DNA of 61,946 nucleotides, filler included, from Bipalium vagum (Eukaryota): NCBI GenBank assembly GCA_037834085.1. It is 3 parts of 3 records of this genome, joined end to end, with 100 filler letters (N's around TTAATTAATTAA, not from the genome) between each part and the next. Parts side by side here need not be neighbours in the genome. Positions count along the whole stretch, not along the records: positions 44,980 to 61,946 come from JBBMKC010084096.1; 2 more parts are not named here. One strand, 5' to 3'. Below, piece by piece: positions 5,234-58,660 of the stretch. Position 1 is the first letter of the stretch, and each line of letters opens with the position of its first letter. The position numbers were made by a program, and so were the translations under genes. Under the pieces are notes generated by a model that saw only the letters and a program-made list of their open reading frames with translations, made no database searches and was not told where the DNA came from.

Positions 5234-6640
5234 TGGATACGGAATGATGCTTCCAAAATTGTAATTGATTTCTCAATTTTCAAATTCGACCATCGCGTTG
5301 AAGCAAAAGTATTTCTGTCTGCTCATCATATGACTACTGTATGATTTTTACCTTGAATTTTAATATCCATTTCAGGGACAAAATCAAAAGCCTAAAAGGA
5401 TAGAAAATCTACATTGTTGGGCATGTTACACTGAATTTTCCATCTTTGAGGAATGAAAATTTTATCTCTCTCATTATATTTGTTCACTTCCTTGTAATCT
5501 CAAATATTTGCTTATAGAGAATATAAAAACTGTCACAATTTTTCCATACACAACATTTATCTGTGTGTTATAATTTCACTGGAATTTTTATTTAATTTCG
5601 TTAAGATGAATANNNNNNNNNNNNNNNNNNNNNNNNNNNNNNNNNNNNNNNNNNNNNNNNNNNNNNNNNNNNNNNNNNNNNNNNNNNNNNNNNNNNNNNN
5701 NNNNNNNNNNNNNNNNNNNNNNNNNNNNNNNNNNNNNNNNNNNNNNNTTTTATTTAAAACCCAAAATATATTGATAAAATTAAGCAATTGGCTTAATTAA
5801 AGAAAAATAATTTAAAAAGACTGTAATTGTTTCAGTCATCACTTTGACTTTTCTCCTTTTACCAAATTTCCATTAAGGATTTCAAAATCTTTCTAACTAT
5901 GTATGTGGTATCATTGAATTCTTCGATTAATTACTTTCTCATGATTTTTATATAATCAACATATCGGGGTCTGGAATCTTTTGCCTTTTATATACAAAAT
6001 AAATCAATTTATTGAATTTTCTGTGTAACTATCTTTATCCTTGTTATTCGTATCTTCGTCAAATTTTCATCATTCATAAATTCGTTTCATCGATATTTTT
6101 CACTTATTTATTCCAGAAAACCCTTATAATAATTGAGCAGCATTCCAGATGTAAATCTAACCGGGTTGTTAAGTCTAATAAACATTGACCATTGTTATAC
6201 CTAAAATAAATAATGTGTATGTCCATGGAAAAATGATTTTTCTTCCCATCATGTTCTTTGCATTAGAAATTAAAAATTTTACCTTAATTGCTCTTCTAAA
6301 TTCTTAGCTGCACGTATAAACATAAGTGATAACTGATTTTGCAGTTCTACAAATCTGTGAGTTCCAGAAAGGTTGATGTTTATTTACTTACCAGATTTAC
6401 TTTACTTAACGATCATCGCCACGGATATGCACGAACTTCATTATATTGAGAAGCTCATCATGACTGTGAAAATTTGCGTTAAATTATATCTTAGAATGGT
6501 TGTAAATAAAGATGGCAAAGATTTGATAGTGGAATCATAAATTTATTCACCATAAACAAAAATCATTGGAAATTTTCCGATATTTCTCAAAATGACCTTT
6601 GTTTAATAAATGCTCTTATACAAAAGTATATATATTCAAG

Positions 6641-9228: not shown

Positions 9229-11260
9229 TTACAACTCCGTCTTGGCATCGTCTTTCTTCTCATCAGGTTGTGGTGGTGGAGCTCCTCCTTGCTGATAAAG
9301 TTTGGTCATTATAGGAGTAACAACATCTTCCAGCTTCTTTTTCTGGGCTTTCAGCTCTTCAGTGTCTGCCTGCTGGTTCTTCTCTAACCAACTTATTGAT
9401 TCCTCAGTCGCCTTCAACACGGTATCCTTGTCAGAGGGACTCAACTTTCCACCTAACTTTTCTTTGTCGTTGATTTGAGTTTTAAGCGAATACGCATAGC
9501 CCTCTAAATCATTCTTGGCCTCAACTTTTTCCTTCACCTTTTTGTCCTGGTCTGCATAGGTTTCTGCGTCCTTGATCATTTTCTCAATGTCCTCCGTGTT
9601 CAATCTGTTTTGATCCTTTTGAATAATGATCTTGTTCTTGTTACCAGTTCCTTTGTCCTCAGCCGACACCTTAAGAATACCGTTGACATCAATCTCGAAA
9701 GTAACCTCGATCTGTGGAACACCACGTGGTGCAGCTGGAATTCCAGTGAGATCAAACTTTCCTAAGAAATGGTTGTCTTTTGTCATTGGTCTTTCACCTT
9801 CGAACACTTGAATAGTAACGGTCGGTTGATTATCGGCTGCGGTGGAGAAAACTTGAGATTTTTTAGTAGGGATGACAGTGTTTCTTGGAATTAATTTTGT
9901 CATTACACCACCAACGGTCTCAATACCTAAAGTCAATGGACAGACGTCCAAAAGAACGATATCTCCAGTTTCTTCGACTCCACCGATAACACCAGCTTGT
10001 ACAGCAGCTCCGAACGCAACTGCTTCATCGGGATTGATTCCGCGACTCGGTTCTTTGCCGTTGAAAAACTCCTTCACCAATTGTTGGACTTTGGGAATTC
10101 TAGTGGAACCTCCAACCAAAACGATTTCATTGATGTCTTCCTTCTTCATTTCAGCGTCCTGTAAAACTTTCTCAACAGGTTTCATTGTAGATCTGAACAA
10201 ATCCATATTCAGTTCTTCGAAACGAGCACGGGTCAATGTTTCCGAGAAATCCTCTCCATCAAAGAATGATTCGATCTCTATTCTAGCACTGTGAGCATTA
10301 CTGAGAGCACGTTTGGCCTTCTCCACCTCTCTTCTCAATTTCTGAACGGCACGTTTGTCTTCACTAATGTCCTTTCCTTTCTTCTTTTTGTACAATTTAA
10401 TAAAGTAGCTCATCACTCTCTGGTCGAAATCTTCACCTCCCAAATGGGTATCACCGTTTGTTGCAATCACCTCGAATACTCCGTTATCAATCGTCAAGAG
10501 TGAAACATCAAACGTTCCTCCTCCAAGATCGAACACAAGAATATTTTTCTCGCCTCCCTTTTTATCCAATCCATAGGCAATGGCAGCTGCTGTTGGCTCA
10601 TTGATGATTCTCAAAACGTTCAGACCGGCAATTATTCCTGCATCACTAGTTGCCTGTCTTTGTGCATCGTTGAAATAAGCAGGCACTGTCACAACGGCGT
10701 GGGTCACCTTCTTACCAAGGTATGCTTCAGCGATTGTTTTCATTTTACCCAACACCATAGCTGAAATTTCTTCCGGTGCAAATGTTTTCAATTCACTTCC
10801 AACTTGTACTTCTACGCTGGGTTTGTTGTTCTTGTTGATCACTTTAAATGGGAAATGTTTGATATCGTCTTGAACTGTTTTATCGTCGTAATTTCTGCCG
10901 ATAATTCTTTTTACATCAAAAATTGTATTTTCTGGATTAGTAGTTAACTGATTTTTGGCAGCATCTCCAATTAAACGTTCTCCTTCATTGGTAAATGCAA
11001 CATAAGACGGAGTAATTCGATTTCCTTGATCGTTAGCAATTATTTCAACTCTACCTCCTTTAAAGACCCCAACACTACAATAGATTATTAATTAAATTAA
11101 TAATACAATTTATAAATTACCATGAATAAGTGGTTCCCAAATCGATACCGATTACAGTTCCGTAATCTTCTTTTTTAGACTTATCCTTCTTGTCTGACTC
11201 ACTTGCAGCATATATACTACAGAACAATATGGAAACGAGTAGTAACGTAAATATTTTCAT
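9229..11260 (-). CDS. HSPA5: BiP / GRP78, ER Hsp70 chaperone, 661 aa, 2 exons
   Basis: Exon 1 11260-11121 encodes a signal peptide ([18 protein letters not shown]) then [12 protein letters not shown] 46-nt GT-AG intron spans 11120-11075, and exon 2 is 11074-9229. Hsp70 signatures [12 protein letters not shown] and [14 protein letters not shown] are present. C-terminal ER-retrieval variant KTEL. Total 1986 nt, in frame. Confidence 0.97.
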
Positions 11261-11306
11261 ATTTGCGAATACGAAATAAGAATGTATTTTTAACTATAAA
11301 GAATGC

Positions 11307-13850: not shown

Positions 13851-14302
13851 TACTTGATTCGAAGGTCGCACAGGATATTGATCCTACTTTAAGGTTAACT
13901 TAAAAAAATTAATTGTAAATAAATATTTTTTCTCTCAATATCTTCAATGATTTTGCAAAAGTAATATTTTAAAATAGACAAAGTATTAGAAATATTTGTT
14001 TTTTCTGAAACAGAAGCTGATTCAGAATTTAAATAAAATTTTTAATACCTTTTTTAAGATCCACATAGATTTTCAAACTTTCTGAATTCTGGTCTTAGCT
14101 TGATTTGACAATTTTGTAGTCACCAGGAACTTTGGATTACTTAAATTTTGGTTTAATGACATGTTAAATATCAATTTTAAGTTCAAATTTTAAAAATATT
14201 ACAAAAATTTGTTCTTTATTATCTGTCAAAGTATCTACATTTCATAATTTTTATGAAATGCAATTCTTGTTTTATTGTTTTAAATAATATAATTATAATT
14301 AG

Positions 14303-17540
<3,238 letters not shown>

Positions 17541-19939: not shown

Positions 19940-20396
19940 AGCGTCTAGAAAGAATTCTTGGTGGTGCCTACTGGAAAATGACTGAACATTTTCTACGTCC
20001 GGTAGTTGAAGACAACTAAGAAATTTAGTTTGAACAATATGGTGATTACAAAAATGCTGAATTTTCATAGCCCCACGATCACCAGATTTGACTTCTCAGG
20101 ATTTTTTTTATGGAGCTACCTGAAAGAGAAGGTTTATATAAACAATCTTCAAAAAATTAAACAGCTAAAAGAAAATATCCGAAGTGAGTTACGTCTCTTG
20201 GACCCGAAAATATTGGATACAGGGATGGAAAATGCCATAAGAAGGGGAATTTTTGTGAGCAAGTAAATGATTGTCATTTAAAAGACATTATATTTTGGAC
20301 TTAGAAAAACTTAAATCATAAGCCTGTATCTTTCAAATAACTAATAATAATAGTTATTATAGATTAAAGTCCTTCAGTCTTCCAGCGCCCACCCTG
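19940..20396 (+). mobile_element. mariner-related (DD41D/rosa-like) transposase 3' remnant
   Basis: Frameshifted PRSPDLTSQDFFLWSYLKEKVY motif (WPPRSPDLTPLDFFLWGYLK type) and a right TIR-like end ...CCCACCCTG|TA. Confidence 0.75.
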
Positions 20397-20583
20397 TATG
20401 TCTTTGAGTATATATTTTGTTTAATCTTTAAATTAAATAATTACCTCTAGATTTTGTTCCACACAACATGTTTCATTTTAATTTCTGAACTTTTATTCAT
20501 TAAAAAATTTAGAATTAATATAATTTTTAAAAATTTAATAAAATTGAATCATTAAAACAAATATTTTTTATTAAAATGTAACC

Positions 20584-22242
20584 TCCTCACTCACTCATAT
20601 GGGTGCCTCTCGGCACACATACTCGTTCCTTCGTCAAAAACGTGTTTACCAAAGTAGTACACTGTGTCGTATAAAAAAATTATTTTTCTTAAAAAAATAA
20701 CTAAAAAATAGTCAAAAAAATCAAAAAATTTAAAACTGAAAAAATCAAATTTTCTTTTAAAAATATCTACTCGAAACACTGAAAAATTCAAATATTAATC
20801 TCGATGAATGGCAAGCTATAAAAAATGTTTTACCTTTTGAAGAATGTTCTTTTCCTGACTATTTATTTCTTGATGATTACAATCTAAAATTTTTAAGTTT
20901 TGAAGGTAATAAAATAACTTATTTAAATTCTCATTATTATAAAAAACATTTAGGAACAGTTTATCAATTTAAAATTTCTACGAAAGATATTACAGAAACA
21001 ACTATTACTAATAGTTTAAATCTTATTTTAAAAACCATTACAAATAATAATAATAATTATAATGTTAGACTGACACCTTTACATCCTTTAATTTATCCTT
21101 TATAGTTGTTTTCCTTTATGTAAAAAAGATGTAGTAAATCAATTATTTACAAGATTCGAAAAAATTTTACAATCAGAACAAACATTAAATATTGAAGATG
21201 TAATTTTTGAATTTTTAATTTTACCAATACCAGTTGGAAAAGGAAGAAACTATGTTAATTATAGTGGAAATAATTCTAAAAATGTAATAATTCAAAATTT
21301 TGCACAGAATTTTATTTACATAATTCAAAATAACGACACAATTTGTTTAGCAAGATCAATAATAATTTCTGTAACTTAGGATAACTTTACAAACAAAAAC
21401 TTTTTAAAATTTGAAGAACGTGATAATAGAATTAGTTATATTAGAAGAGGTGATCCAATTTAAGAAGAATGGGAAATAAAATTACATCATATGTCACTAG
21501 TAGAAATTAAAGAATTATAGTTTATTCTCCTAATAATAATCAAGCTGATTCTTTTTTATATAGAGGAAATGAACAATTTGATAAATAAACCTTTATTTAT
21601 TATGATCAAGAAAATCATCATTTTATTTCAATTACAAAAATAACAGCCTTTTTACAATCATTAAAATATTGTAATACGTGCTTAATAGGATTTAAAAATC
21701 AGCATACATGTAAAATAGATAATCGTAAATCTTATAGATATAAAAAAGTTTGTGATATTTGTAATGAAGAATATTTCAATTCATATCAACACAAGTGTGG
21801 TTATAAGAATTGTCCAATTTGTAATGAAAAATACAAACCTCCATTTAATGAGCACAAATTTTATTTAAAAAATAATGATAGAAAATTTAAACAAAGTAAT
21901 AAATATATATTTTTTGATTTTGAAGTAACACAAGAAACAGCTGTTTATCATGAAATGAATTATGCAATTGCTTATGATTTAGAAAGAAAAATATATTTTA
22001 AAATACAAACAAACATAATATCATATTTTAAACTTATTACTGAAAATTTGAAAATTACCAATTGAAAATATTTTAGATAACATAGAATTTTTTAGAAGAA
22101 ATAATAATTGAAAACTCAATGTCTTTAGTTGAAATATACTTTTATAGCACATTATGCAAAATGATATGATAATCATCCAGTATTAGGTTGGTTAATTCAC
22201 GCATATGAGTGAGTGAGGAAAAAATGGGCGTACCAAAGTAGT
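20584..22242 (+). mobile_element. Polinton/Maverick-like protein-primed DNA polymerase B relic bounded by inverted repeats
   Basis: Pseudogenised fragments LPIPVGKGR, NDTICLARSIII, HHFISIT, a Cys-rich segment (YCNTC..CDIC..HKCGYKNCPIC), ExoI KYIFFDFEVTQE (21901-21936) and ExoII-like FIAHYAK*YD (within 22135-22194). A 22-bp inverted repeat lies at 20584-20605 / 22198-22219. Confidence 0.7.
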
Positions 22243-22720
22243 TCTAAGCTTCATTTTAAATACTGTTAATTTCTGTATTAAGTCATGAGCAAATAATTTT
22301 TTCCCTTGTAAATATGTGAGCCCAGATATGTAAGAATATCCAAAGAAAAATGCTAAATCACATATCCATCTTGGATCCAATAATTCTGGAAAAAAATCAT
22401 TTTCTTTAAGCAGTAAAAATATCTTTATTTCTTCCTGAAGGTCCTACTCGCGCCTTAAAACTTTACCCATACATAACTAAATGACAGATATGAAGTTCTT
22501 CAAGGAGATCTATATAATGCTTGTGATTAAGTTGAATGTTTCGTTTCAAAATGTCTTCTCATGTTGTATTCTTTTAAAACTGCCACAGTCGAGTTACTAA
22601 TGAGACAAACTGCTTCACTATTGTACATGGTAAAAAATATTTCAACTTCTAATTCTTCATTAAATATTTGACATTCTAAATCTACTCGTTTTTTGAGATC
22701 CATAATTGAAAATTTAATTA
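22243..22720 (-). mobile_element. hAT (SPIN/GTF2IRD2/Charlie-like) transposase relic, internally deleted
   Basis: N-terminal KKRVDLECQIFNEE...AVCLIS...VAVLKEYNMRRHFETKH and downstream GKVLRR...EEIKIFL...FPELLDPRWICDLAFF motifs. Confidence 0.8.
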
Positions 22721-22771
22721 TATAAAGTAAATATTTGAATATTAAACTGTATATAAACAAATATATAAGTA

Positions 22772-23915
22772 CAATGCCGTCCATATGTTTTGAGCCACCT
22801 CTAAAATTTCGATAAAATGATGAAAATATATAATTATAAGTACTTTAATCCTGTCTAATATTAAAAAAGTAAAATTTTTTTTGTAAATGTAGAAAAACCG
22901 ATTTGTTCAGAAACATCAATTTTTAAGTCATTTTAAATACGACTAAAACGTCAATAGATTATCTTTTACTTACATTTCAAATGATCAAACACATAATAAT
23001 AAAAAAACAACCTCATGAACAATCGCGATACTCGAATTCAGTACCACCACTTGTACTCATGCCTTTATTTTTAATGACCTCTAGTATTCTTCTTGGCATG
23101 CTTTCATATAGATTTTTAATTTTAGATGTTGGAATCATTGCCCAATGATCCTCCAAATTCTTTCACAGTGCCTCAATATTTGTCGGCCTACAGCTATAAA
23201 CTCTGGCTTTTAGGTCAGCCCACAACGGCTCAATTATATTCAAATTTGGCGATTGAGCCGGCCAATCACTGAGTACGCAGATTTTTTTCATGTCCAAAAA
23301 ATAAGAAACTAATTTTGATTTGTGGCATGGAGCTCCGTTTTGTTGAAATATATTCTCTGCATCATATATTTGGAGCAATCCTCACTTTAATACATCCTTG
23401 TAGGCATCAGAATTCATCCGATCCGGACACCTTACCAGAACTCTGGCGACATCTTCTTTAATTACACCCAAAACCATGATACTATTACCTCAGAATTTCA
23501 CCTTTTTCGTGGTATATTTTGGACTATACCTTGATCCTTGCGGTCTGCGGACGTATTGACTTCTTTTAGAAAACAGTTCTATGCGACTTTTATCAGAAAA
23601 AATCACCTCATTCCAAAAAGAAGGAAGCAGTTTGCTATAATCTCTGCACCACTTTAAACGATTTTATATGTCGCTCGTTATAAATATGGTTTCCTCGCTG
23701 CAATTCATCCGGATAAGCCATACTTTCTCAGAATGCGTTTCACAGTACTAAGTGAGTTAGTTTTGCTTGTTTTCTAATTGATAAAAAGATCACGTGCTGT
23801 TTTCTGGGGATTTTTCTTTGACATCCGAATAAGTGATCTTTCTGATCTTTGTTTATTTTTCGGTCTACGACCACTTTTACTTAAGTTTCTCAATTTTCCA
23901 TGTTGTTGCAGCTTC
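22772..23915 (-). mobile_element. Tc1 (DD34E) transposon, 5'-truncated and pseudogenised, with 3' TIR
   Basis: Transposase motifs SGRRPK, FWNEVIFSDKS, IFQQNGAPCH, WPAQSPNLNIIEPLW, LYESMPRRILEVIK. TIR begins TA|CAATGCCGTCCATATGTTTTG at 22772. Confidence 0.9.
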
Positions 23916-24073
23916 CGTAATAGTAATAATAATAAGAAAGAAAAGTTAAAAAGATTCTAGTAAAAAGGAAAAAATTGAACTAAAAATGATGTAATCACGT
24001 TAATAACAAAAGCAAATACAGAAAATGACGTCAAAGTTAAAATTAAAATAACGTTAATAATAAAAATAAAAAT

Positions 24074-24173
24074 NNNNNNNNNNNNNNNNNNNNNNNNNNN
24101 NNNNNNNNNNNNNNNNNTTAATTAATTAANNNNNNNNNNNNNNNNNNNNNNNNNNNNNNNNNNNNNNNNNNNN
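24074..24173. other. assembly gap with artificial TTAATTAATTAA linker (same at 44880-44979; plain N gap at 5613-5747)
   Basis: 100-nt block N44-TTAATTAATTAA-N44, identical in two places. The linker has stop codons in all six frames. Confidence 0.9.
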
Positions 24174-24519
24174 GTTTGCAAATATATTGTTTGGTGTTGA
24201 TATTATTTAAGTTTTAAAATGCGACAATTTCATCGTGGACAAGCTTTATTGTTAATCCTGTTTTATTGACACCTGGCTGTTGAATAGAATTAATCTCTAG
24301 TCCCAAATTGATTTTCGATGACAAATATTGTTAAAAACTGTTATTTGTCCTTTCAACTTGAAATCTACGTGCTGATATGATTTTTCTTCTTTTATATGGA
24401 TAATTACGTGACATTGTTTTTCGTTAGCAAATGTTACCAATTATAACTTTTCGACATTTTTATCTTAAAGTAGCGAAAGCTACTATTAATAACTTTTCAT
24501 GTTATAATGATATGCAAAG

Positions 24520-24881
24520 AATACGATCTTTGATTGATGAGAATTGTGTGATGATGTTAAAGGTACATGAAACAGGTGCATTTTTATAATAGATAATATG
24601 CATTTCCACATGCGCAAAATGGTTTGGAGAAGACTTTGAGCAATAATGTTATACTGTATTATAATGTATTCCTTCCACCTTACTTGCCTTTCCTTAACCA
24701 TATGGAAAATATATTCTCGAAATGGAAAAGTTTGATAAAGGTAAGACAGCAAAAGAATTACAGTGAGTTGTTTGATTTAATTAAAACCAACTGTAAGAAA
24801 ATAATACCAGGTAATTATTCTGGATTCAAAAAGAATAAATTTTCATTCCCAGCGAAATTTCTCAAAAACATCAATCATTGA
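24520..24881 (+). mobile_element. IS630-Tc1-type transposase C-terminal remnant
   Basis: IFIIDNMHFH and FLPPYLPFLNHMENIFSKWK resemble the DDE motifs IMDN..FH / FLPPYSPFLNPIE. Confidence 0.65.
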
Positions 24882-26180
24882 TGGTTGACTTTGTGTATTA
24901 AATACATATTGAAAAGTTTTTCCAAAATTCTATATCAACCAGGTAAGGGTCAGTTTAAAAATGTGGTGATAACATTTAAAATTTGAAATAAAAAATTTTA
25001 AAATGACGTGACAAACTTTGCAGTTATTAATAATATTTATTTTATTTCAAAATTTTATTGAGAATATCTTTAATAATTTTAAATCTTAACAATTTTTAAT
25101 TTCAATAATTTAAGTTGAGAAAATTAAAATTATAATAAAAAATAAAATTGTGAAAAATATTATTTCACAGATCACTGAGATTTCTAATATCATTCAAATG
25201 GCGACCTGTCAGTAATGAATAGATTTTGTCAGAATTTTAGTGGAAAATAACGTAAAATAACTTAAACACACTTGAAAATTAGGCTTTACGAACAAAATTT
25301 TAAAATATAAAATAAAGACAGACAAGTTTAGTCTAAATGGTAAAAATGCAGACCGTCTAACTTGAAACTCAAGTAAATCGATAAATCCCTGTTAAATTAC
25401 TTAATTTTATGAAATTTGTTTTATTTTAAAATCAGATCATCCCAAATCTGTAATAATCGATATTATTATTGCTTCATTTAATAATTCATTTAGAGTATCA
25501 TAAATGATTATAGTGTGATGACCTTACATAAATAGCAAATACGTCCAATTAATATTTAATAAATAAACTTAAACTTTTATGTAAATCACAATATTAGTTA
25601 TTACATGAATTATGAATTTGGTGGAGAACAATGAAAATAATTAATTTATAATTGGAACTATTCTCTTAACAAACAAATACTTTGACCAATATTTTAATAC
25701 AATCTTATTGGACGATTAATTAAAGAATATTGAATGAATTATTATATTGTTCTGAGTATAAAAGTTAAAATTGTCTAATAATAACATAAAATCAGTTCCG
25801 TTTCAAAGGAAAATATATTAAAAATGGCTGAAATTCATATAACTTTTTTATCTCGGATAATATCGCAAAATATATAAATAATTAATTACTCTTTGCCAAA
25901 CTAAGATACCATTTAATTCCACGTGAAAAGATCAATTAAATTTTACTTTTAACAACAAAAAATGTTTCAAAACTGCTCCCAACTCCAACAACGTCACCAA
26001 TCAAAGATAAGGAAGACAAATTACAAAAGTGTATTACAAAGTATGACAATAATAAAACAATAAAACTCGCTACATAATATTTTTAATTTGAACATAATAT
26101 TAGGCCTCCGTGACACATAATGTTGAACACATTGAAGAAAAATGTGGGGTTTTTGTAAGAAAAGCGTCATAATTCTATTT

Positions 26181-43027
<16,847 letters not shown>

Positions 43028-45761: not shown

Positions 45762-48700
45762 ATGGAAATCGAAGTTCTTGATCTAAGTCAAAAGCCTATG
45801 TGTTTGAGTGAAAATGACTTACCAACTGCAATGGATCTTTCTCAAAAAGTTCATTCTCAAGTAAAATTTTTCTTGAAATTTCTCCGTTGAGAATAAAATG
45901 GATTTAAGGGGTCAGGTGTAATATGCTTAAGTGAAGACGAAGATGACGATAGTATTAATCAGTTATTGAACAAACTTAATATAGAAAAGCCATCGTTTAA
46001 AACTATTGAAGCTTGTCAACTGTTACTGCATCAACTTGATGAAAGACTGCGAAGTGAAGAAACCATTGAAATATTATTGGCGCAAATGAAACATACACAG
46101 AAGAAAATTCCATCATTGGTAACAACAGGAAACTCGAATCCAATACGCCAAAATGGTCACTCCAATCCAACAACAACGAGCACAAACAACAACAGTTCCG
46201 CAGCTATTCAAACCTCATCCAGTCGAAATCAAAATATCGATAGCGGAGTAGAAACATCCCCCAGCAATCAGACAGACACCCTCGCAGTTTCTGGTAATCG
46301 CACTAGCGCCCAAAACGTGATCAATAGCGGATACACGAACAACAACGAAATCAGTAAATCGTCGTCGAATGCCGCTGGAATAACGACAACTAACGGTCCG
46401 AAAATGACACGAGAAATGGCTATGCAAGCATTGGATCAGCAATATCTGGCCCGGAAAGCATTGCTACGAAAGCATGCCGACAAAGCCCTTTCCGAAGTCC
46501 CTCTGTCTAGACCACCACAAGGTGCAATGGCTCAATCGGATCTCAATCTGATACCGAGTACGGCTACAAATGAATTTGTTGCTCTGGTGGGCTTGGAAGA
46601 AGTGGTAAAAAATTTACAGGTAAAATAAATTTTATCAATTGATGATTTATTTAACTATTTTATTGTTGATTTTATACAGTTATTAATTATTGACCAGATT
46701 TTTATTTCGGTAGTGATTTTTTTATTTCACTTTTAATGGTCAGTTATCTAGATTAATTATAATCAATAAACCGACTAGATTTAATGAAGATTTATTAAAC
46801 GGAAACTTTTTTTATCGAAAATTAATATAAATATAAACCAGGATCGTTTCAGATTATTCCATCATTAAATTTCACGTCTTTTTAAAAGATGTTTTTTAAA
46901 AATTATTAATTTTTAATAATTTGTAAAAGGTAAATCTTCTGTTATAAAACCACTTTGGGATTTAATTATCGAATTTATTCTTAAAACTAAAGCTTAATTT
47001 CAAAATGAGATTTCTTTTTCTACTTTCATTGAAAACGACTGAAAATTTTAATAGATTTTAAACAAGCAATATCGATTTTCATTTCAGTTTTTTATAAAAA
47101 TAAGGCTTTATTTCATTAAAGAAATTATTTTTATTATTTCTCCATTTGTTCATGTGTATGTACACTTCCTTTCTATTATCGATCTTTAAGGTTATAATAT
47201 TTACATTTGTGATGGCACCTTGTTTTGATTGGTTTTTCAACCACTTCACCATAAAAGGTTTTAATATTCTTTCGTGTTCCGTTTTTTCACCTTTATATTC
47301 AATAGTGACATGGTTTTTTAAAATTAATATCTCAATAATTATCAAATAAAAGAAGTGTTCATTGGATTGTATCATTTTTGTATTATATATTAATTAATTG
47401 CTTATTATTAATAACAATTACCATGTTCTCAATGCAAGAAATTAATTTTAAATCGATAAATTTGCTCAACACACAAAGCTAATTAAACAATCAATTGTTA
47501 TTTGATTTCGGAAGCGAAGCAACCCCAAACATGTCGATCAAACTCTTCTCCAATGACGAGAAGAGGTCATGGTCAAATGTCTTCTTGCATGTGAGTCGGT
47601 GACATTGTTATCGACTGGTTTGAAAATAGCAATTAGAAACGTGTCAACCAATCAATTGTGAGAAATAATTTTCATCTGGGTTATTATGGATATATGTCAA
47701 TCTTGTGAGTCATCTAAACGAATGCGATGTGAAACAAATAAAAAATGTGAAACCACCCGACTTCCTTTTCCCATCGAGAGCTAAATAATGATGCATGTAC
47801 GATCATGTTTGTTTGCCCGTGTGTGTTCCGATGCTTCAGCCTGTTTCTATTTCCACTTAATCTCTAAAAATATCTTTCCAAAACAGAAAAACGATATCGA
47901 TTCATTCTCATAATTTACAATTTTTCTCTTACATTCTACCAACCGTGTACAACAGTCAATAATAATATTAATAATAGTAAAAAAATTATTAATAATAAAA
48001 CTAAATTTTAATAAAAATAATTATGATAATAATGATTTTAATAATAATAAATTAATATCAATAAATAATAAATAATAATAATAACATCACTATTAAAAAT
48101 AAATTACAATAAAAATAATATACAAATAATTTTATAATAATAAATACATAATGAATATGATAATGATAATAATAAAAATAAATTATAATGAAATTAATAA
48201 TATATAAATAATCTTAATAATAAACTTAAATAGTAATAAAATAATTTAATAATATTATTAATAATATAACGATAACATCTTTTGTGTAATTCTTAAACAA
48301 TTCGAAAATTTCCGCTGCATTTGCAGACTGTTTTTTTTTCTATCCCCTAAATAAGTATTTTCACTTTTATTTGAAAGTCTTTGATAGTGTTCACTTCTTT
48401 CCATTTCCCCATAATTCAAATGATTGTTATAATGTTATTTTCTGTTCTTTCCTTAGCTCGGGGATCCATCTTGTCATTATTGATTGACTTCCCTTATGAG
48501 CGTGGCAAAATTTTTTGTGCATTAATTGGTTCTGCAGTGTCCGAATGGTAGATTGAAATCACTGCTGCACATTTCCGAGAATCTTTCCCACATCGAAAGT
48601 TTTATTATATATCGAGCAATCTTCCTTTTCTCAGATAAAATCGTTCTTTCTAATCCTTGATCTATTAAATTTATGCTTTCTTTCCGTTTCATTTTCTCAG

Positions 48701-49688: not shown

Positions 49689-51604
49689 AATGTCTCACTT
49701 GGCACATTTTCGTACGCTTAATTTGCTAAACTTTATTTAGCTCTACTGGTTTTACTCGGTTATTTCTATTTTGTGATGCGATGATTATCTACGACTTAAG
49801 CACCTGATCAATTCGATAAGAGTTATCAATTTTTCTTTAGAAATCAACTAAGGTCTTCACAAATCTTAAAGTGGTTTTACAGAAATATCTATCTTTACTT
49901 TAATTAATTTTATTAATTAGAGATTTTTATTTATCGATTTTTTCTTTCTGAAAATGTATGATTTTTTTTTAATTATTACTTTTCTATCAATTTGAAAAAA
50001 TGATTTTCTCGGAAATACCAGATAGATTTGTGAGGTCGTCTGAGTTCCATTGAAGGATTTTTCTTTTTGTTGTTATTAAATCAATGTGAATAATTTTGAA
50101 ACTGTAAAAAATGCTATTGAAAAAGTAATTTGCGATCTTTGAAACTTATTTCATTTCTCTTTCAAATTTTATCAGTCAACAAATTTCAAAGTTTTGAGGG
50201 ATGATGATTTGAAAAAAAATCACACAATTCAAATTCGTGATGACTTTGAAAGTAGGAAATTCAATTAAAGATTTGCCTCGTCAATAAACTTTAGAAATGT
50301 CAATCAAAATTAGAACTCTTAATTTTTAATAATGGCAAAATAAATACCGAGAGAGGGCTTTCAGAAATCTTTTTTTTCAATTAATAAACTGATAATTTCA
50401 CTGTTGCTTTTGACCAATTGAAACTAATTTTTTAAAAATGAATTTTTAAGTAAATATTTGATATTATTTTATTCATTTTGAGCAGATTTTCGAAAGTCAT
50501 AAAAATGTATTGAGGAATTAAGTACTAACGTAAAATAATAATAATAGTAATAATAATAATAAAAAAAAAATAATATTAAACCGAATTTAAAGAAAATTGT
50601 TTTATTTATTATTATTAAATTATTCTTAAATTATGAATGGGGAATTAATGGATTAGTTTTATTTTTATATTGTCTTGGAACATTTTGAAGTTTTATATTA
50701 ATTAATAATAATAATATTCTGCTTTCTCTCTTGATAAATCGACCTCAAACCAGTCATAAGAATCCAGAATTTTATAAGTAGAAGTTATTCTTGTTTGCAA
50801 CAATTTCCGTTAATAATGATACACATGGTTAAATATCTGACATACATTTTAAGGAGTCCCGTAAAACATAAATCGAAATATAAGGGTTTTTAAGAAAATC
50901 ACATTTATTGATTTTAAAATCTATATAAACTTTATTAAATAGCTAATAATCTATTTACATTTAAAACAGGAATATCGTAATTTGGCGTTGGGATACAGTG
51001 CAAACGAAGTTCGGATGGTTTTTACTCCCTTTAATTGTGTCCAATGTGGCACTGATTTTACCCCACTTTGGAAACGAGAGCGTCCCGGAAGTAGTAAAGT
51101 GGTTTGCGAGTCTTGTTGCGGTGAGAATTATCGTCGAGCCCTGCAGAATGATTATCAGGAAAAGATTCGATTGGTCCTAAAGAAATATCAAGATCAAGTA
51201 AGTTTTTTCGTGTAAAATTGAATGTCGATAATTTTTTTACTGAAAATGTAATTTAATAACAAAGCTTTACATACCTGCCTTGTATGATGAAATTGTTCCT
51301 TAAAATATTGATTTTATCGACAATACCAATAAAATTGAAAAATTGAAATCGATCGATAGACTGAATTTAAAAAGTTTTATACTTTTTCTTATAAACAACG
51401 ATATTTTGAAAACAATCGTAAAAGCGATAGTGCGATTAATTATTGATTTATAATGAAGAGTTATTATCCATTTTATTGAGTGAGATCAATTTTAAATAAC
51501 GAGCTTAATTTGTTCACGGATATCTTAGTTGTGAAGAGTAAACAACGTTGAAACACTTATTAAATATGATCGTAAATCGGAATAATAATAATAAGTGTAA
51601 TAAT

Positions 51605-51641
<37 letters not shown>

Positions 51642-54600
51642 TGAAAAATTAATTAAAATATAATTTAATGATTAAGTTAATTTTAAAAGAATAAGTCAAT
51701 GATATTAAAACATAATTGAGAGGAGACTCGGAATTGTTTAGATTAATCTTTTTCAATTGTGATTATTGTTAAAAGTAGTCAGTCCACGACAATAATGAAA
51801 GAAACAGTAGGAAATTAATATCACTAATTAGAAATCTGTAATAGAAAAATTGATTTTTGTGGAGAATTTATTTTTTAATGAAATAGTTTTTTCTATCTTT
51901 CGCAATATATTTTGTCTGTCCCATTGTTAATATTGGCTGAAAAATTGCTTTCCTATTTTGTCGAAAATTGATAAAATAATAAAAATAAAAAAAATTGATA
52001 AAATACTAAAAAAAATCAATATACAGATCATACCAGAAAAGCGTAATTGTAAATTTTCAGATTTACATTTTTTATACTTGATATTACAGATATTACAAAA
52101 ATTGATTTTAATTGTTTATAAAATATTTTCAAGAAATAATTTAATGTTTGTCTCCAGACCTAAAAAGTTCCGCGATTTACGTCAATGATTGTTTTAAGTT
52201 GAATTGCAAGCGATCTATAAGTTGTAAATGTAATATTATTAATTATAATATAAAATCAATTACCTAATTGTAATTATTCGAAAGAAATCCACCAATTCTT
52301 TTAATAAGCTAAATATATGTCGCAATAAATTCCAAACAAGGAAGAAATTAGTTAAATTATTAAATTTTATTTCCTGAATGGAAAAAATGCCACAAGTCGC
52401 AAAAAATAGATATGATGTTTATGAAACTAATACTGTATCAGAGAGAGCAGGAAAGGTTATAGACTAAAAAGAGCATATTTGATTTAAAAAGCTTATTTAG
52501 AAAGTTTTTCATTAAAGTTTTTATTAAAGTTTATTTATTGGTCACCCAATATTAAAGGGTGCACGAATTGAAGTAGATTTTAATGATAATGATGGTCAAT
52601 CGATTTTAATGTTATCTGCGCACTGTATACATGTTGTTATAAATTGTATAAATGATTGATGCAATGTGACTGTTGAGATTGTGCAGTTGACTGAAACATG
52701 TACATCGGCGCAAGAAAACTTAGACAGACAACGGTTTTATTTATTACTTAATAATTCTCAAAATTCATAGTCAAAATTCTTATCAAGTATTCTGTTTTCT
52801 TATTTTCATGCTTTTTTTACTTTTAACAAGAGAAAATGATAATTTTATCGAAATTCCAGATGTTTTTTATCGAACGATTTCTCGTTATCTAAATCCATAT
52901 TTAACTTAACTTTTTAAAGTATCTTTTTCTTCTGATGGAATTATAAATTGAACAATATATATATTATATATAAACAGAATTAATAAAAAATAATAATAAT
53001 AATCTCAAAGTAATTAATTTCGTTTTAAGAGAAGTAAAAATCTCAAATCAAATTTATTAAACTAAATTATTCATTGAAATAAATTTTATTGTTATTTTAA
53101 ATCAAATTAAACCAAAACTTATTGATTTTTGAATTTTTATAATTAAAATTCAGATAATTAAAAAATCACTGTAACCTAAAAGCAATTTAAAAATGATTTT
53201 TAAAAAAACTAATATTGATTTTATTATTAAATTTTTCTATTTTTTTGAAAGTTATTAAACATTCATAAAATTATCAACAATCTAGTTCACAGATCTTTCG
53301 TCGTTCTTCGATTATTTTAGTTCTTATTGACTAAATAATTACCATAAACAACCTTGAAACCTTAGTTTGACGAACAGCCGACCTTTATTTTATTCTTATC
53401 TCTTAAAATTTGTTACGGTTGAAAATTAATTAATTGAAAAACAGAAACATTCATAATAATTGGTCATCTAAAAAATTTTTCGTTTTACAAGTAAGAAAAA
53501 AACTGCGTTTTCTGCATTTATTATCAGAATTCAGTAAATAATTTTTGCATTGTCTTCTCATCAAATTGTCACAAAAATTATGTTCTAGAGATTGGTCTGT
53601 AACTTTTTTACGATTTTTCATTGGATTTGTAATTTTCTGGATATTACTTTCTGTTGCTTTCTTTTCTATTCTACTTTTTTGGGGATTGTCTTAAATTCTT
53701 TACCTAAAATATTATTTTGTTTTATTTTCAACTGTTACATTTGCTGTGAATTTTGTTATTGAAAATCAATTATTTTCTAAAAATAGGGCTGAAAAAGTTA
53801 GAAAAACAATTTCAAATTGTTGATCGATATTTTTTTTTATATATTACAATGGTATTTTAAAACAAAATTCCTCTATTAATATGGAACAAGAGAACCAAGA
53901 ACCAATGAGTGACATTTTTCAATTATTTTTCTATCGACAATAAGCAGTAAAACTAGGTCAATTAAAACAATGAGTCTCATCATTTGGTAACAAGTACATA
54001 TGCAAAACATTTTTGTGTGAAAATTGTCATTTTTTCAATTTATTTTCAAAATCTATTTTAAGCTCCGGAAGTTCTTTGTTATTCATCAGATCTATTTTGC
54101 AAAAACCATTCTTCACGGTTTTGTTTTAACTTGAACAAATTGAATAAAATATTCATTGAAATTTTGTCATTGAAAATTTACTGAAAATAATCCCCATAGA
54201 GTTTTTGGTAATGCAAAAGAGACAGTTCCAATGAAATAATAATTCAATGAAATCATCGACAGTTAATCGAGGAAAAAATCATTGTACGTGGGACATTCAC
54301 ACAGGTTAGCTGAATTCCAACACGACAGAAGATATTGTGATTAGTGAATGTTGAGAGATTTTCAGTTTTCCGTGGAGATATCTGAACAAGAAAAGGCACG
54401 AGACAGTAATGAGAGAGTTGAAGAAAATGGCTTAATTGATATGGAAAATATTCTTCTTTTACATAAATAAAGTTATTGTGTGAATATTTACAATTGAGAA
54501 TACGCATTTCTTGAGAGTAATTACAAATGTAAATTGTTAACTACTTTAATTGCTAGATTGTTTAAAGTTTCACTATGAACAGATTGTTTAAAAATCAATA

Positions 54601-57600
54601 CTTTTTTGATTTTTTCTGAAAAGATTTTCTCTTTTTCTGTTTTTTTAAACTAAAATCGAAATTAATATTACAATTTTCCTTTTTTCAAGATTCTGTTCAC
54701 AAAATTATTCTTTCCTGTTTACTGTTTTTAAATAGGCCTTTTTCGTTTCGTGTTGGTGATTATTTACTTTTTTTATACAATCTTACAAGTTTTTTTACTT
54801 TCTTTTTATGTCCGAGTCAATGATATTTTTTTAATTTTCTTTAACTATCTCTGTTTCTCTACTGATAAAACCGTGTCAAAACATACATTATGAATAGTAA
54901 ATAAAATTTGCATTTTGGAGGAATATATTCTGTAGTATCAATAGAAAGACAATTTAATTCTGTTACCTCAGTTTATCGAACTAATGTTTCATTTTTTATT
55001 TCTCAACACACAGTGGATGAATGGTATTGAATTGGTGAGTGTTGAGAAATTCCCAATTGTCTGTGAACATTTTAAGATCAATAGTAAGAGAAGAAATAGA
55101 CTTTTGTAAAATATTCTCTCTGTACATAACAGTGACTGTGAACATTATTAAGAATAAACAAAGAATCAAATTAATGCAAATTAAGACCGAGTATCATAAT
55201 GATTATGGACCTTATAATTCCAAGCCCCGTCAAATGAATTCATGTTTGTTTTACTGTATTGAAACATTGGTTATGTGATTTATTTTACTGAGGAAGTTCA
55301 GATTTTTTCATTACATTTTTAACACAGGAATTTAAGTTACTTAATTATTACATTTATATTTATTATTATTATTATTTTATTAATATTAATATTAATATTA
55401 TTTTTATTGATTAATCTTATTTCTAAATATTACAATATTTCTTACTGATTTTTACTTTCGATTTTTCTTATTCATTTTTTTTTCAATTAATCACCAGTTT
55501 ATAATCAATAATATAAATTTTAAAATTCAGAATTATATTATTAGGTTGAATATTTTTTTATTAATTTAAATAAATAGAAAAATAATTTTCCCTTAACCAT
55601 GATTGATGAATATCCAGATTTTTTACATTTTTCTTTGTTTTTAGATGTCATAAAATTCATAGTAAGGATTTTCAAAAAAATATTTCTTTAAATATTAATT
55701 ATTTTTTGAAAATCATGCTCAGCCAAATGAAAAGAATTCAAACTATTACTTATAATGAGCTTATTCCATATATTTTTAAATTCTAAAATGAAATTCTCAT
55801 TCTGAGATTTCGATCAATATTTTCCCTCTACATATTCATCTGAATGTAATAATCAATTGTTCAGGGTAAGCGCAATTTTTCATTTAAAGAACACTCTTAC
55901 CACGAATATAAATATTATTTTTATTTTTCTCCATTTGTTCTTCTTTCCACTGCAAAATTGTCAGGTAGAATTTTAATTTGATTCGTTTCTCGAAAATATT
56001 CATTTTCTTTTCTCCTTCTGTATTTCTCAGTCTAAATGACAGTTGAATTTTTAAATGAGATTTCTAGATTAATTTTAGAATTCATTCGTTGATTTATTAT
56101 TATTTTTATAAATTATTACGAAAAATTGAAAATGAGTTTTCATAGACAAAATTGATTTATATTTCTTCAGGATATTTTAGAACATAACTAAAAATTCTGT
56201 TTTCTTTAACAAGTTTTTACTCATGAATTTAGGAACGTGACTTGGACCGTGATTATAAAGACATGTTAGACAGTCCTAAAAAATTCGAATTATTCCGTAA
56301 AGAACAAGAGAAAAAGTTGCTGGCAATGAGCACTCCAAACAACAGGTCCAATACAGCAGCCACACAACCAGGATCTCGAGCTTCAACAACTGGACATCAT
56401 CACACGACCTCCGCAAACGCCGTTAGTGCTATACCATCACAGGGTCGACCAACTCATCGTTCGAGTAATATTGTCACTACGGCTAATAATTCTGGCCGGT
56501 CAGCCCCGACCACCGGTTCCCAGCAATATGGGCAACAGATGCGTCATCAGAATTCCACGGCAAGTGGGATAAACGCTTCCTCAACAACAACATCTCAGTT
56601 AACTGTCGATCAACTTGCTTATATGCAGATGTTTCAGGCCCTCAACCAACTTGGTTCATCGAGCACTCGTGAGTCATATTGTAATAATTTTATTGATACT
56701 TTGTTATTTTTTAATCGAATAAAAATAAATTTTTATTATTATTATTAGGTATAAAATTTATTGACTTAATACTATAATCAATGGAGATCGAAAAATATTT
56801 GATTGAAGTTGAATTCAAAAAATTGATTTTGAAAAAAGATTAAATAGAAAATTGAGAAGGAAGGAAATAAAAAATTAATTAAAATTGATTTTTTAAGTCA
56901 GTAAAACAATATTGTAATTATATATATAAAATGTTGAAAGACTTCATATCGATTATAAAATGTTTTGTTTCACTTTGTAATCTTAATCAAAGTCAATATT
57001 TATTATTACTGGGTCAAATAATAATCGTCGATTAAAGAGTGAGAGAAAAGAGTCGATAATAGATCTATAAGTAGTGGCTTTCAATTTAATGTATCCAACA
57101 TTATATGATGGAGGGATTAAGAAATCTTTTAAATGATTACTCTTTTATTCCGTGTTAATTTCAAAAACAGTGTCAGAAAAGCAAGTAATTTAGCAATCAA
57201 AATCTTAAATCGATTTTTTGCTTTGTTGTCAAACATTTATTTAATGTTTGGTTCTCAATATTGATTTAATGATTCATTTTTGAAAAGCAAATAAAGGACA
57301 GAAACAGACGAAATGTGAGTTGAAACGAGCAATTACAGCAAACGAAGGAACTGGTGTTCTTTGTCGCCGTATTCTCGTGTAAAATTCCTCTCGACTTTGT
57401 ATTCTAGAACCATCGATTGTCACTAATCTACGCGATGCAGACTTGATAAGATATTTTAATGATGGTAAAAATCAGTCTCTCTTGATAACTTGATAATGTT
57501 CTGAACATTTCAACAGTTGTCATCTATCCGTCAATTCACATTTTAATCAATAACAGAAAATTCCAATTTCTTGACATTCTTTGTCACATTTTTTTACAAA

Positions 57601-58660
57601 GATTTTTTCCCATTTTCATAATTCAGTAATCCATGTCCTGCTTGTTTAACTTGATTATTGATCGAATTTCTTTTCGGAGTTTTTTTGCGTTTTTCCCAAC
57701 TACCTAGGGTGAATTCTGTATACTTTTTTTCTACTTTGGTTTCCGGAGTTTTTATCTTCCTGAGATTGGAGTACAGTGAAAATATTTAAAATTTTTTATA
57801 ATAAGAACAGTGAAAAATGGAGTTTTTCTGATAAATTATTTTGATTGACTCAAATTATTTAATTTATTACTTACAAATATTTATTCCAATCACATAGAAT
57901 TTCTCACTTTTCCTTCTTGTGAATTTATCTTTGAAAGATAAAAATTTTATTTTTTTAAAAGATATTTTCGAATTAATGAAAATAGTTAATTTCAATTTTC
58001 AATTGACATTATTTGTGAATGTCTTTATATTTTTAAATGTCTAATAAGTTTAAAAGACTAAAAGTTATTTTGTGGATCATTTCCTACTCTTTTTCGGTGA
58101 ATCAAATGATCGTTTATTTTGAAAATAATAATAATGTTTATAGAAACTTCATTTTATCCATTCGCACCCATCCGTCTACAATAGCACTCTTTAAAACCAA
58201 TCTGTAATAAAAATTTAGTCGAACCTTTCTCTATTTATTATCTTTTTCATCATCATTTGTGATGACGGTGAGTAGTATCGTCATTTTCTTGAAAATGGAA
58301 AGAACCAACGAAAGTCAACGTTTCATTATATCAAAACCAATGATACTGTCTCATTGTTTATTTCTTTCTCTTTATGTAGTGAACCAACAAGCTTCTCGTC
58401 AGCAGCAGCAACTCATGCAGCAGATTCTTCAAATGGCCTACATGAGCAGTGCCACTAGCCTGCTGGGTGGCTCCACCAACAATGCGGCCGCAAATTCATT
58501 CGTCCAATTCCTGAGCAACATGGCCGGTCTCCTCAACAATCCCACCAGTACACCTGATACCACTGGCGCTACTGGCAACAGTACCACCAATAACGCTCTT
58601 CTGAACTATTATCTATCGATGCTGCAGCAGCAGCAGGCGGCAGCAAACTCTGACAAATGA
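45762..58660 (+). CDS. GATAD2: p66 / GATAD2A/B-like transcriptional repressor (NuRD subunit), ~584 aa, 5 core coding exons
   Basis: Exons 45762-45860, 45909-46619, 50970-51197, 56233-56668, 58380-58660 (1755 nt, in frame). Domains: CR1 coiled coil (QLDERLRSEETIEILLAQMKHTQ), CR2 (ALLRKHADKALSEVP...LIPSTATNEFVALVGLEEVV), GATA-like finger PFNCVQCGTDFTPLW...CESC, and a Q/N/S-rich C-terminus. Confidence 0.9.
48626..48761. repeat. 66-bp tandem duplication (2 copies)
   Basis: TTTTCTCAGATAAAATCGTTCTTTCTAATC... starts at 48626 and again at 48692 with few substitutions. Confidence 0.85.
55014..55034 (+). CDS. candidate 21-nt alternative micro-exon of p66 (WMNGIEL)
   Basis: Branch-like CTAAT, then a pyrimidine tract, then cacag|TGGATGAATGGTATTGAATTG|gtgagt. 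Phase 0/0 matches the host intron. Confidence 0.65.

What the first reader, a model, noticed from the sequence alone, without database searches (positions are those of the whole stretch)
54979..55040. One-heptad (21-nt) micro-exon in the helix right after the p66 GATA finger
Seen: a complete 3' splice signal (aaCTAATg, tttcattttttatttctcaacacacag), then TGGATGAATGGTATTGAATTG and a gtgagt donor, isolated in a 5-kb phase-0 intron. Inclusion gives KKYQDQ-WMNGIEL-ERDLDRDY. Established: the p66 CR2/GATA region contacts CHD3/4 in NuRD. Inference: exactly 7 residues would keep the register of a predicted coiled coil while lengthening it, which could alter NuRD assembly in a cell-type-specific way.
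Basis: partly seen in the sequence, partly recalled or inferred. Interest (0 to 1): 0.75.

Follow-up and report, generated by a model that had tools for sequence, protein, structure and literature searches.

The report
Base-pair-caged micro-exon in flatworm p66
A flatworm gene for the chromatin-remodelling subunit p66 holds a 21-base stretch with complete splice signals that are complementary to five nearby intron sites, so it is likely a normally skipped mini-exon, held shut by RNA pairing, that would add seven amino acids to a conserved helix; no RNA data were available to show it is used.

Summary
In detail: 55014-55034 is an in-frame, stop-free 21-nt candidate exon with CTAAT branch point, pyrimidine tract, CAG and GTGAGT, inside a flatworm (likely planarian) p66/GATAD2 gene. 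Homologues match the skipped form (129 of 131).

The exon's 3' splice signal is complementary to five sites in the flanking introns. One starts at the exon's own donor and is predicted to form a 12-bp hairpin looping out the exon. In a control, 20 of 21 other acceptors had no such site and 0 of 282 random tiles had three. One site lies in a decayed tandem copy of the exon region.

The insert falls just before an invariant Glu, inside the helix that closes the CR2 'lasso' around CHD4 in the human structure. It would lengthen only one of the two helices and puts Gly at a predicted core position, so distortion is likelier than clean lengthening.

No RNA run and no close relative was reachable, so inclusion and conservation are untested. 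Best reading: a default-skipped, structure-repressed microexon (0.55). Rival: a silent duplication relic (0.3).

The parts
55014..55034 (+). Candidate 21-nt phase-0 microexon (7 codons, WMNGIEL)
54979..55013 (+). 3' splice signal (CTAAT branch point, pyrimidine tract, CAG); also the 'docking' sequence that all antisense sites match
55035..55071 (+). Donor GTGAGT plus antisense module 1. 55039-55050 pairs with 54998-55009 (12 Watson-Crick pairs, stem A); the GAACATT part (55065-55071) can pair next to the branch point
55260..55272 (+). 13-nt site antisense to the branch-point region 54979-54991 (12 Watson-Crick pairs + 1 G-U, stem B)
54311..54488 (+). Decayed tandem copy of the exon region (aligns to 54996-55146). 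Its 15-nt exon-like part has an in-frame TGA, a weak GTGAAT donor and no good pyrimidine tract; it holds antisense module 2 (54344-54381)
53355..53367 (+). 13-nt site antisense to the branch-point region (12 of 13 match)
52666..52700 (+). Antisense module 3 (GTGACTGTTGAGA core plus TGAAACAT), complementary to both pyrimidine tract and branch-point region
55133..55146 (+). Direct repeat of 55058-55071 (partial module, weak pairing)
50970..51197 (+). p66 exon 3: GATA-type finger and first part of the C-terminal CR2 helix
56233..56668 (+). p66 downstream exon; begins with the invariant Glu and the rest of the helix
45762..46619 (+). p66 coding exons 1 (45762-45860) and 2 (45909-46619): CR1-aligned helix, N-terminal CR2 helix and central CR2 helix
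58380..58660 (+). p66 last coding exon; the model is open for 584 aa (skipped) or 591 aa (included)

Best explanation
This is likely a real but normally skipped cassette microexon of a flatworm p66 gene: its branch point and pyrimidine tract are complementary to five flanking intron sites that are predicted to keep it shut, and its inclusion in some cells would put seven residues into the helix inferred to close the CR2 lasso on CHD4. Shown in the sequence: the splice signals, the open frame, the complementarity, the decayed upstream copy, and that homologues match the skipped form. Predicted: the 12-bp hairpin that pairs the tract with donor positions +5 to +16 and forms as soon as 16 intron bases are transcribed, hiding both splice sites; the other sites act as redundant or competing partners. 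Inferred: the cage arose by local inverted and tandem duplication of one module, a direct copy supplying the donor and an inverted copy the acceptor. Inclusion would need a factor that opens the stems. The best guess is a UGU-binding CELF/Bruli-type protein, since UGU motifs sit in the paired arm and MBNL and UGC motifs are absent near the splice sites (weak; about 0.25 given that the exon is real). Inferred protein effect: a bulge or kink, or a 7-residue shift of the distal helix, that loosens the lasso closure or its packing on CHD4 without removing the main CHD4-binding helix.
For: Strict splice signals are rare by chance, and a consensus branch point is rare among this window's acceptors (4 of 22). 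Frame and phase are compatible. Stem A is the best of 400 acceptor-by-donor pairings (-16.7 against next -12.1 kcal/mol) and was matched by 3 of 20000 shuffles; its pair probability was 0.88-0.99 in all contexts and temperatures folded and it persists in a 2.7-kb fold. Three 13-mer antisense sites lie within 2.5 kb, against 0 for 20 and 1 for 1 of the 21 other acceptors and at most 2 for 282 tiles; exact 8-mer sites bring the total to five distinct sites. GTGANTGTTGAGA occurs 3 times, all in this intron, expected 0.29 (pattern drawn from these sites). A relaxed version of the same scan finds a 30-nt phase-0 exon in this window's alpha-actinin gene, and S. mediterranea has a measured 30-nt actn4 cassette exon (PSI 6 in stem cells, 66 in differentiated cells; PMC4978528 supplement), so such signals can mark real exons in this clade. 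Planarians have 262 annotated microexons. A harmful cryptic exon would be removed more simply by one point mutation than by five antisense sites (inference).
Against: No transcript, junction read or orthologous exon was seen. None of 131 p66-type homologues carries a 7-residue insert there, though none is a close relative (best identity 54%). p66/GATAD2 is not named in the S. mediterranea stem-cell-differential list. In human genes, complementary regions are enriched over inactive and cryptic splice sites and depleted over active ones (PMC8052449), and vertebrate neural microexons have unusually unpaired branch-point regions (PMC12871342). Whole-region folding is no better than shuffles (z -0.08 and 0.24). 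Stem B vanished in 1 of 3 contexts. Distal duplex energies (-22, -18) are within the range of best partners of other acceptors (up to -26). Because the donor lies inside the inverted repeat, it is not independent evidence of selection. The upstream copy is dead, so such modules can persist without coding.
Confidence: 0.55

Rival explanations
1. A silent pseudo-exon: local inverted and tandem duplications of a short intron module created acceptor-like and donor-like sequences by accident, and the same repeats keep them permanently paired, so the 21-mer is never meaningfully included.
For: A decayed copy with a stop codon lies 690 nt upstream (score 60.5 against mean 30.0, sd 4.4, next best 47.5, 796 windows). 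Three related modules share spacer similarity. Donor and tract are inverted repeats of each other. Paired sites are enriched at cryptic splice sites in human. No homologue has the insert.
Against: It needs a consensus branch point, CAG, length divisible by three and no stop all by accident. The acceptor side is intact in one copy only, while the antisense cores are kept in all three modules. The 54971-55421 bin has near single-copy depth in X1 (34, against about 20 for unique contigs and hundreds at repeats) and one contig spans it, so it is not a young high-copy element. No target-site duplication flanks either inverted repeat.
Confidence: 0.3
2. One reading: a real protein-regulated microexon whose seven residues continue the helix and lengthen the coiled coil in register; the RNA pairing is incidental.
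For: Seven residues keep the helical face. Trp falls at e and Leu at d in the inferred register. The helix is a coiled-coil strand in the human structure. Strong branch point and a 42-nt AG-free zone resemble fly eMIC-type exons.
Against: The partner helix is encoded in another exon and does not lengthen. Gly falls at a, next to Asn. The invariant Glu moves by 7. No UGC near the acceptor and no YGCY within 150 nt on either side. The complementarity is far above controls.
Confidence: 0.12
3. The exon is constitutive in this lineage, or the hairpin is a separate intronic small RNA such as a pre-miRNA.
For: Both splice sites are near consensus; the hairpin is stable (-16.3 kcal/mol over 57 nt).
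Against: The skipped form matches the conserved spacing in 129 of 131 homologues. Both splice sites are predicted to be paired. The uninterrupted stem is only 12 bp with a large loop, and Rfam gives no match above chance.
Confidence: 0.03

Closest known systems
Planarian regulated microexons (CELF/Bruli versus MBNL program; Solana et al. 2016, PMC4978528; passages, supplement file 2 parts 1 and 6 of 7, and searches of its 8 supplement files)
   Same: Length of 27 nt or less, frame-preserving, in a long intron of a likely triclad gene; the window's actinin 30-nt candidate matches a listed event in gene and length.
   Different: p66 is not named in the differential list. No MBNL motif flanks this exon. 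The passages read describe protein motifs, not RNA pairing of splice signals.
RNA-structure blockage and loop-out of cassette exons (tau exon 10, SMN2 exon 7, cTNT exon 5, PCCRs; PMC10790352 and PMC8052449, passages)
   Same: Splice sites, tract or branch point hidden in stems; looped-out exons tend to be skipped.
   Different: Here the exon's own acceptor pairs directly with its own donor flank across a 21-nt exon, with four further partner sites on both sides.
Docking site-selector systems of mutually exclusive exons (Dscam, 14-3-3zeta, Mhc; duplication model of Ivanov and Pervouchine, PMC6071210, passages)
   Same: Several related sites, apparently made by duplicating one stem arm, all complementary to one site.
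   Different: The docking site is the exon's own branch point and tract; only one intact coding exon is present, so no mutually exclusive array; pairing is predicted to repress rather than activate.
eMIC/SRRM3-4-dependent neural microexons (10.1101/2021.02.24.432780, passages; PMC12871342, abstract and first part of Results)
   Same: Short, strong CUAAY branch point, long AG-free zone, branch point 30 nt upstream.
   Different: No UGC near the acceptor, strong rather than weak donor, and a predicted paired rather than accessible branch-point region.
GATAD2A-CR2 lasso on CHD4 (10.64898/2026.06.03.728223, passages and parts 2-3 of 5; 10.64898/2026.07.17.739209, part 1 of 5)
   Same: Same CR2 layout: N-helix, proline linker, central helix, GATA finger, C-helix.
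   Different: No isoform with an insert in the C-helix in the parts read; flatworm helices are longer at both ends.

Membership tests
p66/GATAD2 | GATA-type finger within CR2, with flanking N-, central and C-helices | tested here: met
   Pfam GATA above cut-off; best hits are p66 proteins, named so for flatworms; alignment
p66/GATAD2 | CR1 coiled coil upstream | tested here: met
   Exon 2 aligns with the upstream conserved helix of homologues (helix 68-101 in the model); the label CR1 is from my own knowledge of the family
Microexon (3-27 nt cassette exon) | Length 27 nt or less with canonical acceptor and donor | tested here: met
Microexon (3-27 nt cassette exon) | Frame preserved, no stop | tested here: met
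Microexon (3-27 nt cassette exon) | Inclusion in mRNA shown by junction reads | not testable with these tools
   No RNA holder was listed; X1 behaves as DNA
Microexon (3-27 nt cassette exon) | Conservation in related species | tested here: inconclusive
   No close relative reached; distant homologues lack the insert
MBNL-activated planarian exon | YGCY/GCUUGC motifs in the downstream intron | tested here: not met
   0 within 150 nt either side
CELF/Bruli-activated planarian exon | UGU-rich downstream intron | tested here: inconclusive
   6 UGU in 150 nt against a mean of 2.9; 8 of 98 intron windows reach 6
eMIC/SRRM-dependent microexon | UGC close to the 3' splice site | tested here: not met
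   Nearest TGC is about 105 nt upstream
eMIC/SRRM-dependent microexon | Strong CUAAY branch point and long AG-free zone | tested here: met
Docking site-selector mutually exclusive exon cluster | Several selectors complementary to one docking site | tested here: met
Docking site-selector mutually exclusive exon cluster | Two or more intact tandem alternative exons | tested here: not met
   Every in-frame exon ending at the two upstream GT sites has a stop
Docking site-selector mutually exclusive exon cluster | Pairing conserved with compensatory changes across species | not testable with these tools
   No orthologous intron available
MITE / hairpin transposon | Terminal inverted repeats with target-site duplication and many copies | tested here: inconclusive
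   Inverted repeats present; no flanking duplication; near single-copy depth; one search omitted even the self contig, so old diverged copies are not excluded; no genome held

The most novel reading that the evidence does not exclude
A single microexon whose own branch point and pyrimidine tract serve as the docking site for an array of duplicated antisense selectors on both sides, one of them its own donor. The exon would have been born from inverted and direct copies of one module, and opening this cage in one cell state would make a p66 isoform that loosens CHD4 from NuRD: a splicing switch between full NuRD and the deacetylase-only core in planarian stem-cell differentiation.
Probability: 0.15. 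Interest if true: 0.78.

Novelty: new variant of a known kind. Interest (0 to 1): 0.5.

Why it matters
p66 is the bridge that holds CHD4 in NuRD, and planarian p66 and CHD4 control differentiation and regeneration (PMC5011480, PMC12518275; passages). A regulated insert in the lasso-closing helix would be a natural way to tune CHD4 attachment, an interface that is now a drug target in humans (two 2026 preprints). On the RNA side, it would be a compact, testable case of microexon control by pairing of its own two splice regions, the opposite of the accessible architecture reported for vertebrate neural microexons, and a snapshot of exon birth by local duplication. One RT-PCR or a look at planarian junction reads decides most of it.

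Tried and rejected
No RNA holder listed; the one run, X1, covers introns evenly and shows no splice joint among the joints listed (237 further joints were not shown). No genome held. Word-based protein search with the finger exon found nothing; with a flatworm homologue it gave 13 proteins: 12 named parasitic-flatworm entries (query included) and one unnamed contig protein. Two degenerate-pattern scans of metagenome contigs gave 0 loci. ESM Atlas gave only generic GATA clusters. The human CR2 structure was not found in the PDB copies by sequence or fold, so contacts at the junction could not be mapped. Complex prediction of three helix pieces gave no answer (score 0.01). The second read-laying dropped the self contig and cannot show copy number. 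Rfam: 3 chance-level hits; pre-miRNA rejected. Literature: no paper held the insert or flanking peptides; GATAD2 plus microexon gave one unrelated paper; two searches gave none; some searches gave context only. Bioinformatic supplements of bioRxiv preprints were closed, and one large supplement of PMC12518275 was unreadable; either could hold p66 alignments. An unnamed 21-nt differential exon in the S. mediterranea list (SmeEX0000028) has flanks of about 55 and 4900 nt and could not be assigned. Earlier scan findings: nothing bearing. My first gene model was off by one base and was corrected; the homologue count does not depend on it. Temperature had almost no effect on predicted pairing from 15 to 37 C, so an RNA thermometer is not supported.

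Full report
Observation. The sequence is as described: CTAAT at 54981-54985, a pyrimidine tract, CAG ending at 55013, a 21-nt exon 55014-55034 reading WMNGIEL, and GTGAGT at 55035. A six-exon model (45762-45860, 45909-46619, 50970-51197, the microexon, 56233-56668, 58380-58660) is open for 584 aa without and 591 aa with it. A strict scan found 2 such sites on both strands of the window. Simulated introns gave any hit in 2-3% and an in-frame stop-free hit in 0-0.7% of 300 runs per order (filter chosen after seeing the site). Only 4 of 22 acceptors have a CTRAY branch point.

Gene and clade. The upstream exon holds a GATA finger. Its best relatives are p66/GATAD2 proteins at about 50% identity, and the ten that also match the downstream helix include eight named parasitic-flatworm proteins and two unnamed ones. 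Two S. mediterranea p66 primers from a supplement (PMC12518275) match the window at 15 of 19 and 16 of 20 bases. They translate to VALVGL, found in none of 162 held hits, and to a TPL variant found in 0 of 23 flatworm-type homologues. The organism is therefore likely a triclad other than S. mediterranea; this is an inference.

Protein context. Of 162 held hits, 131 had a p66-type finger by my pattern; 129 have Glu exactly 28 residues after the last zinc Cys, one is truncated and one lacks the segment. The skipped form has this Glu; inclusion puts Trp there. The Glu is invariant in a 56-sequence alignment, with no insertions anywhere in the helix. An AlphaFold model of a tapeworm homologue shows one helix, 289-331, with pLDDT 96-98 across the junction before residue 319. 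In the human crystal structure the N- and C-terminal CR2 helices form a coiled coil that closes a lasso around CHD4 and packs on it, while the 9 nM binding element is the central helix 383-401 (10.64898/2026.06.03.728223). The finger ends by residue 444, so the homologous junction lies inside the crystallised 335-486 (inference). In the register I inferred from hydrophobic spacing, the insert gives Trp at e, Gly at a and Leu at d. Since the partner helix does not grow, a bulge, kink or shift is more likely than lengthening. I could not model the included form.

The cage. A repeat search found arms 54998-55012 and 55036-55050 (15 nt, 93% complementary) enclosing the exon, and arms 54979-54991 and 55260-55272 covering the branch point. 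Stem A has 12 unbroken Watson-Crick pairs. It is the best of 400 acceptor-by-donor combinations from 20 exons of the window, and 3 of 20000 shuffles matched it; 8 of 8743 window positions with the same geometry did. Its pair probability was 0.88-0.99 in every context. Stem B was matched by 6 of 3000 shuffles but disappeared in 1 of 3 contexts. Further partners lie upstream: GTGANTGTTGAGA at 52666, 54344 and 55035 only (expected 0.29), each followed by a short stretch complementary to the bases beside the branch point, and a 12-of-13 branch-point complement at 53355 (no enrichment at two mismatches). A control applied equally to all acceptors gave three 13-mer antisense sites here, none for 20 and one for 1 of the other 21, and at most two for 282 tiles. 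Against this: folding of the whole region is no better than shuffles, and the distal duplex energies are within the range other acceptors reach, although this acceptor has the most extreme z-scores of 22 by a small margin. The local hairpin and the repeated motif are solid; the long-range pairings are plausible only.

Duplication. 54311-54488 aligns with 54996-55146 (core score 60.5 against mean 30.0, sd 4.4). This copy has a 15-nt exon-like part with an in-frame stop and a weak donor. No open in-frame exon ends at either upstream GT site, so this is not a mutually exclusive array. The layout fits the arm-duplication model for docking sites and selectors (PMC6071210), with the difference that the docking site is the acceptor itself. 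The region is not a young high-copy repeat, but old copies elsewhere are not excluded.

Is it used? No RNA could be obtained. Indirect support: a relaxed scan (24 candidates on both strands, most of them noise) found a 30-nt phase-0 exon in the window's alpha-actinin gene with three YGCY motifs downstream. S. mediterranea has a measured 30-nt actn4 exon with similar flanking intron sizes that is skipped in stem cells, as expected for MBNL-activated exons. I matched these by gene and length, not by sequence. The p66 exon lacks YGCY and a nearby UGC and has a modest UGU excess. Indirect doubt: p66 is not named in that study's differential list, pairing over splice sites is typical of inactive sites in human, and vertebrate neural microexons are unpaired there.

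Mechanism and odds. Most likely (0.55) a default-skipped microexon repressed by pairing and opened in some cell state, giving a p66 with a distorted lasso closure. Next (0.3) a silent relic of local duplication. Microexons, structure-blocked splice sites and competing pairings are each known; the combination in a NuRD core subunit was not found in the searches run, which cover open-licence papers only. Verdict: new variant of a known kind, unproven at the RNA level, interest 0.5.

Noticed in passing
window 28483-28512 (- strand): Candidate 30-nt phase-0 cassette exon in the 3.8-kb intron between the EF-hand exons of alpha-actinin, with GTAAGT donor and three YGCY motifs 31-46 nt downstream; same gene and length as the stem-cell-excluded S. 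mediterranea actn4 exon SmeEX0000230. No flanking hairpin.
   Followed up: partly
window 45762-45860 (+): p66 exon 1 has two DLS-containing motifs (VLDLS and MDLS); the first aligns by eye with the VLDLS of flatworm homologues. Reading them as CtBP-binding PXDLS-type motifs is recalled, not tested.
   Followed up: no
homologues P0152, P0003, P0056 and window exons 2-5: Flatworm p66 has conserved extensions of both CR2 helices (N-helix from 175, extra helix 333-346 in the model) that other animals lack, suggesting a longer lasso closure.
   Followed up: partly
window 52558-52665 (+): An AG-to-GT stretch of 108 nt ending at the upstream GT module is open for 33 codons and then stops; possibly a dead or poison exon.
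   Followed up: no
window ~52140-52480: A multi-copy repeat inside the p66 intron (many variant contigs, depth above 1000 at some positions).
   Followed up: no
window 3437-5272 (-), 9232-11293 (-), 14300-17480 (+), 26200-42822 (-): Neighbouring genes by translation: a long single-ORF protein whose C-terminus looks GPRIN-like (recalled), BiP, UDP-glucose 4-epimerase and alpha-actinin (last two named from recall); Tc1/mariner-like fragments near 20000-24900 (recalled).
   Followed up: no
window 58380 acceptor (+): The last p66 exon's acceptor has one 13-mer antisense site about 910 nt downstream, in an AG-rich stretch; probably low complexity.
   Followed up: no
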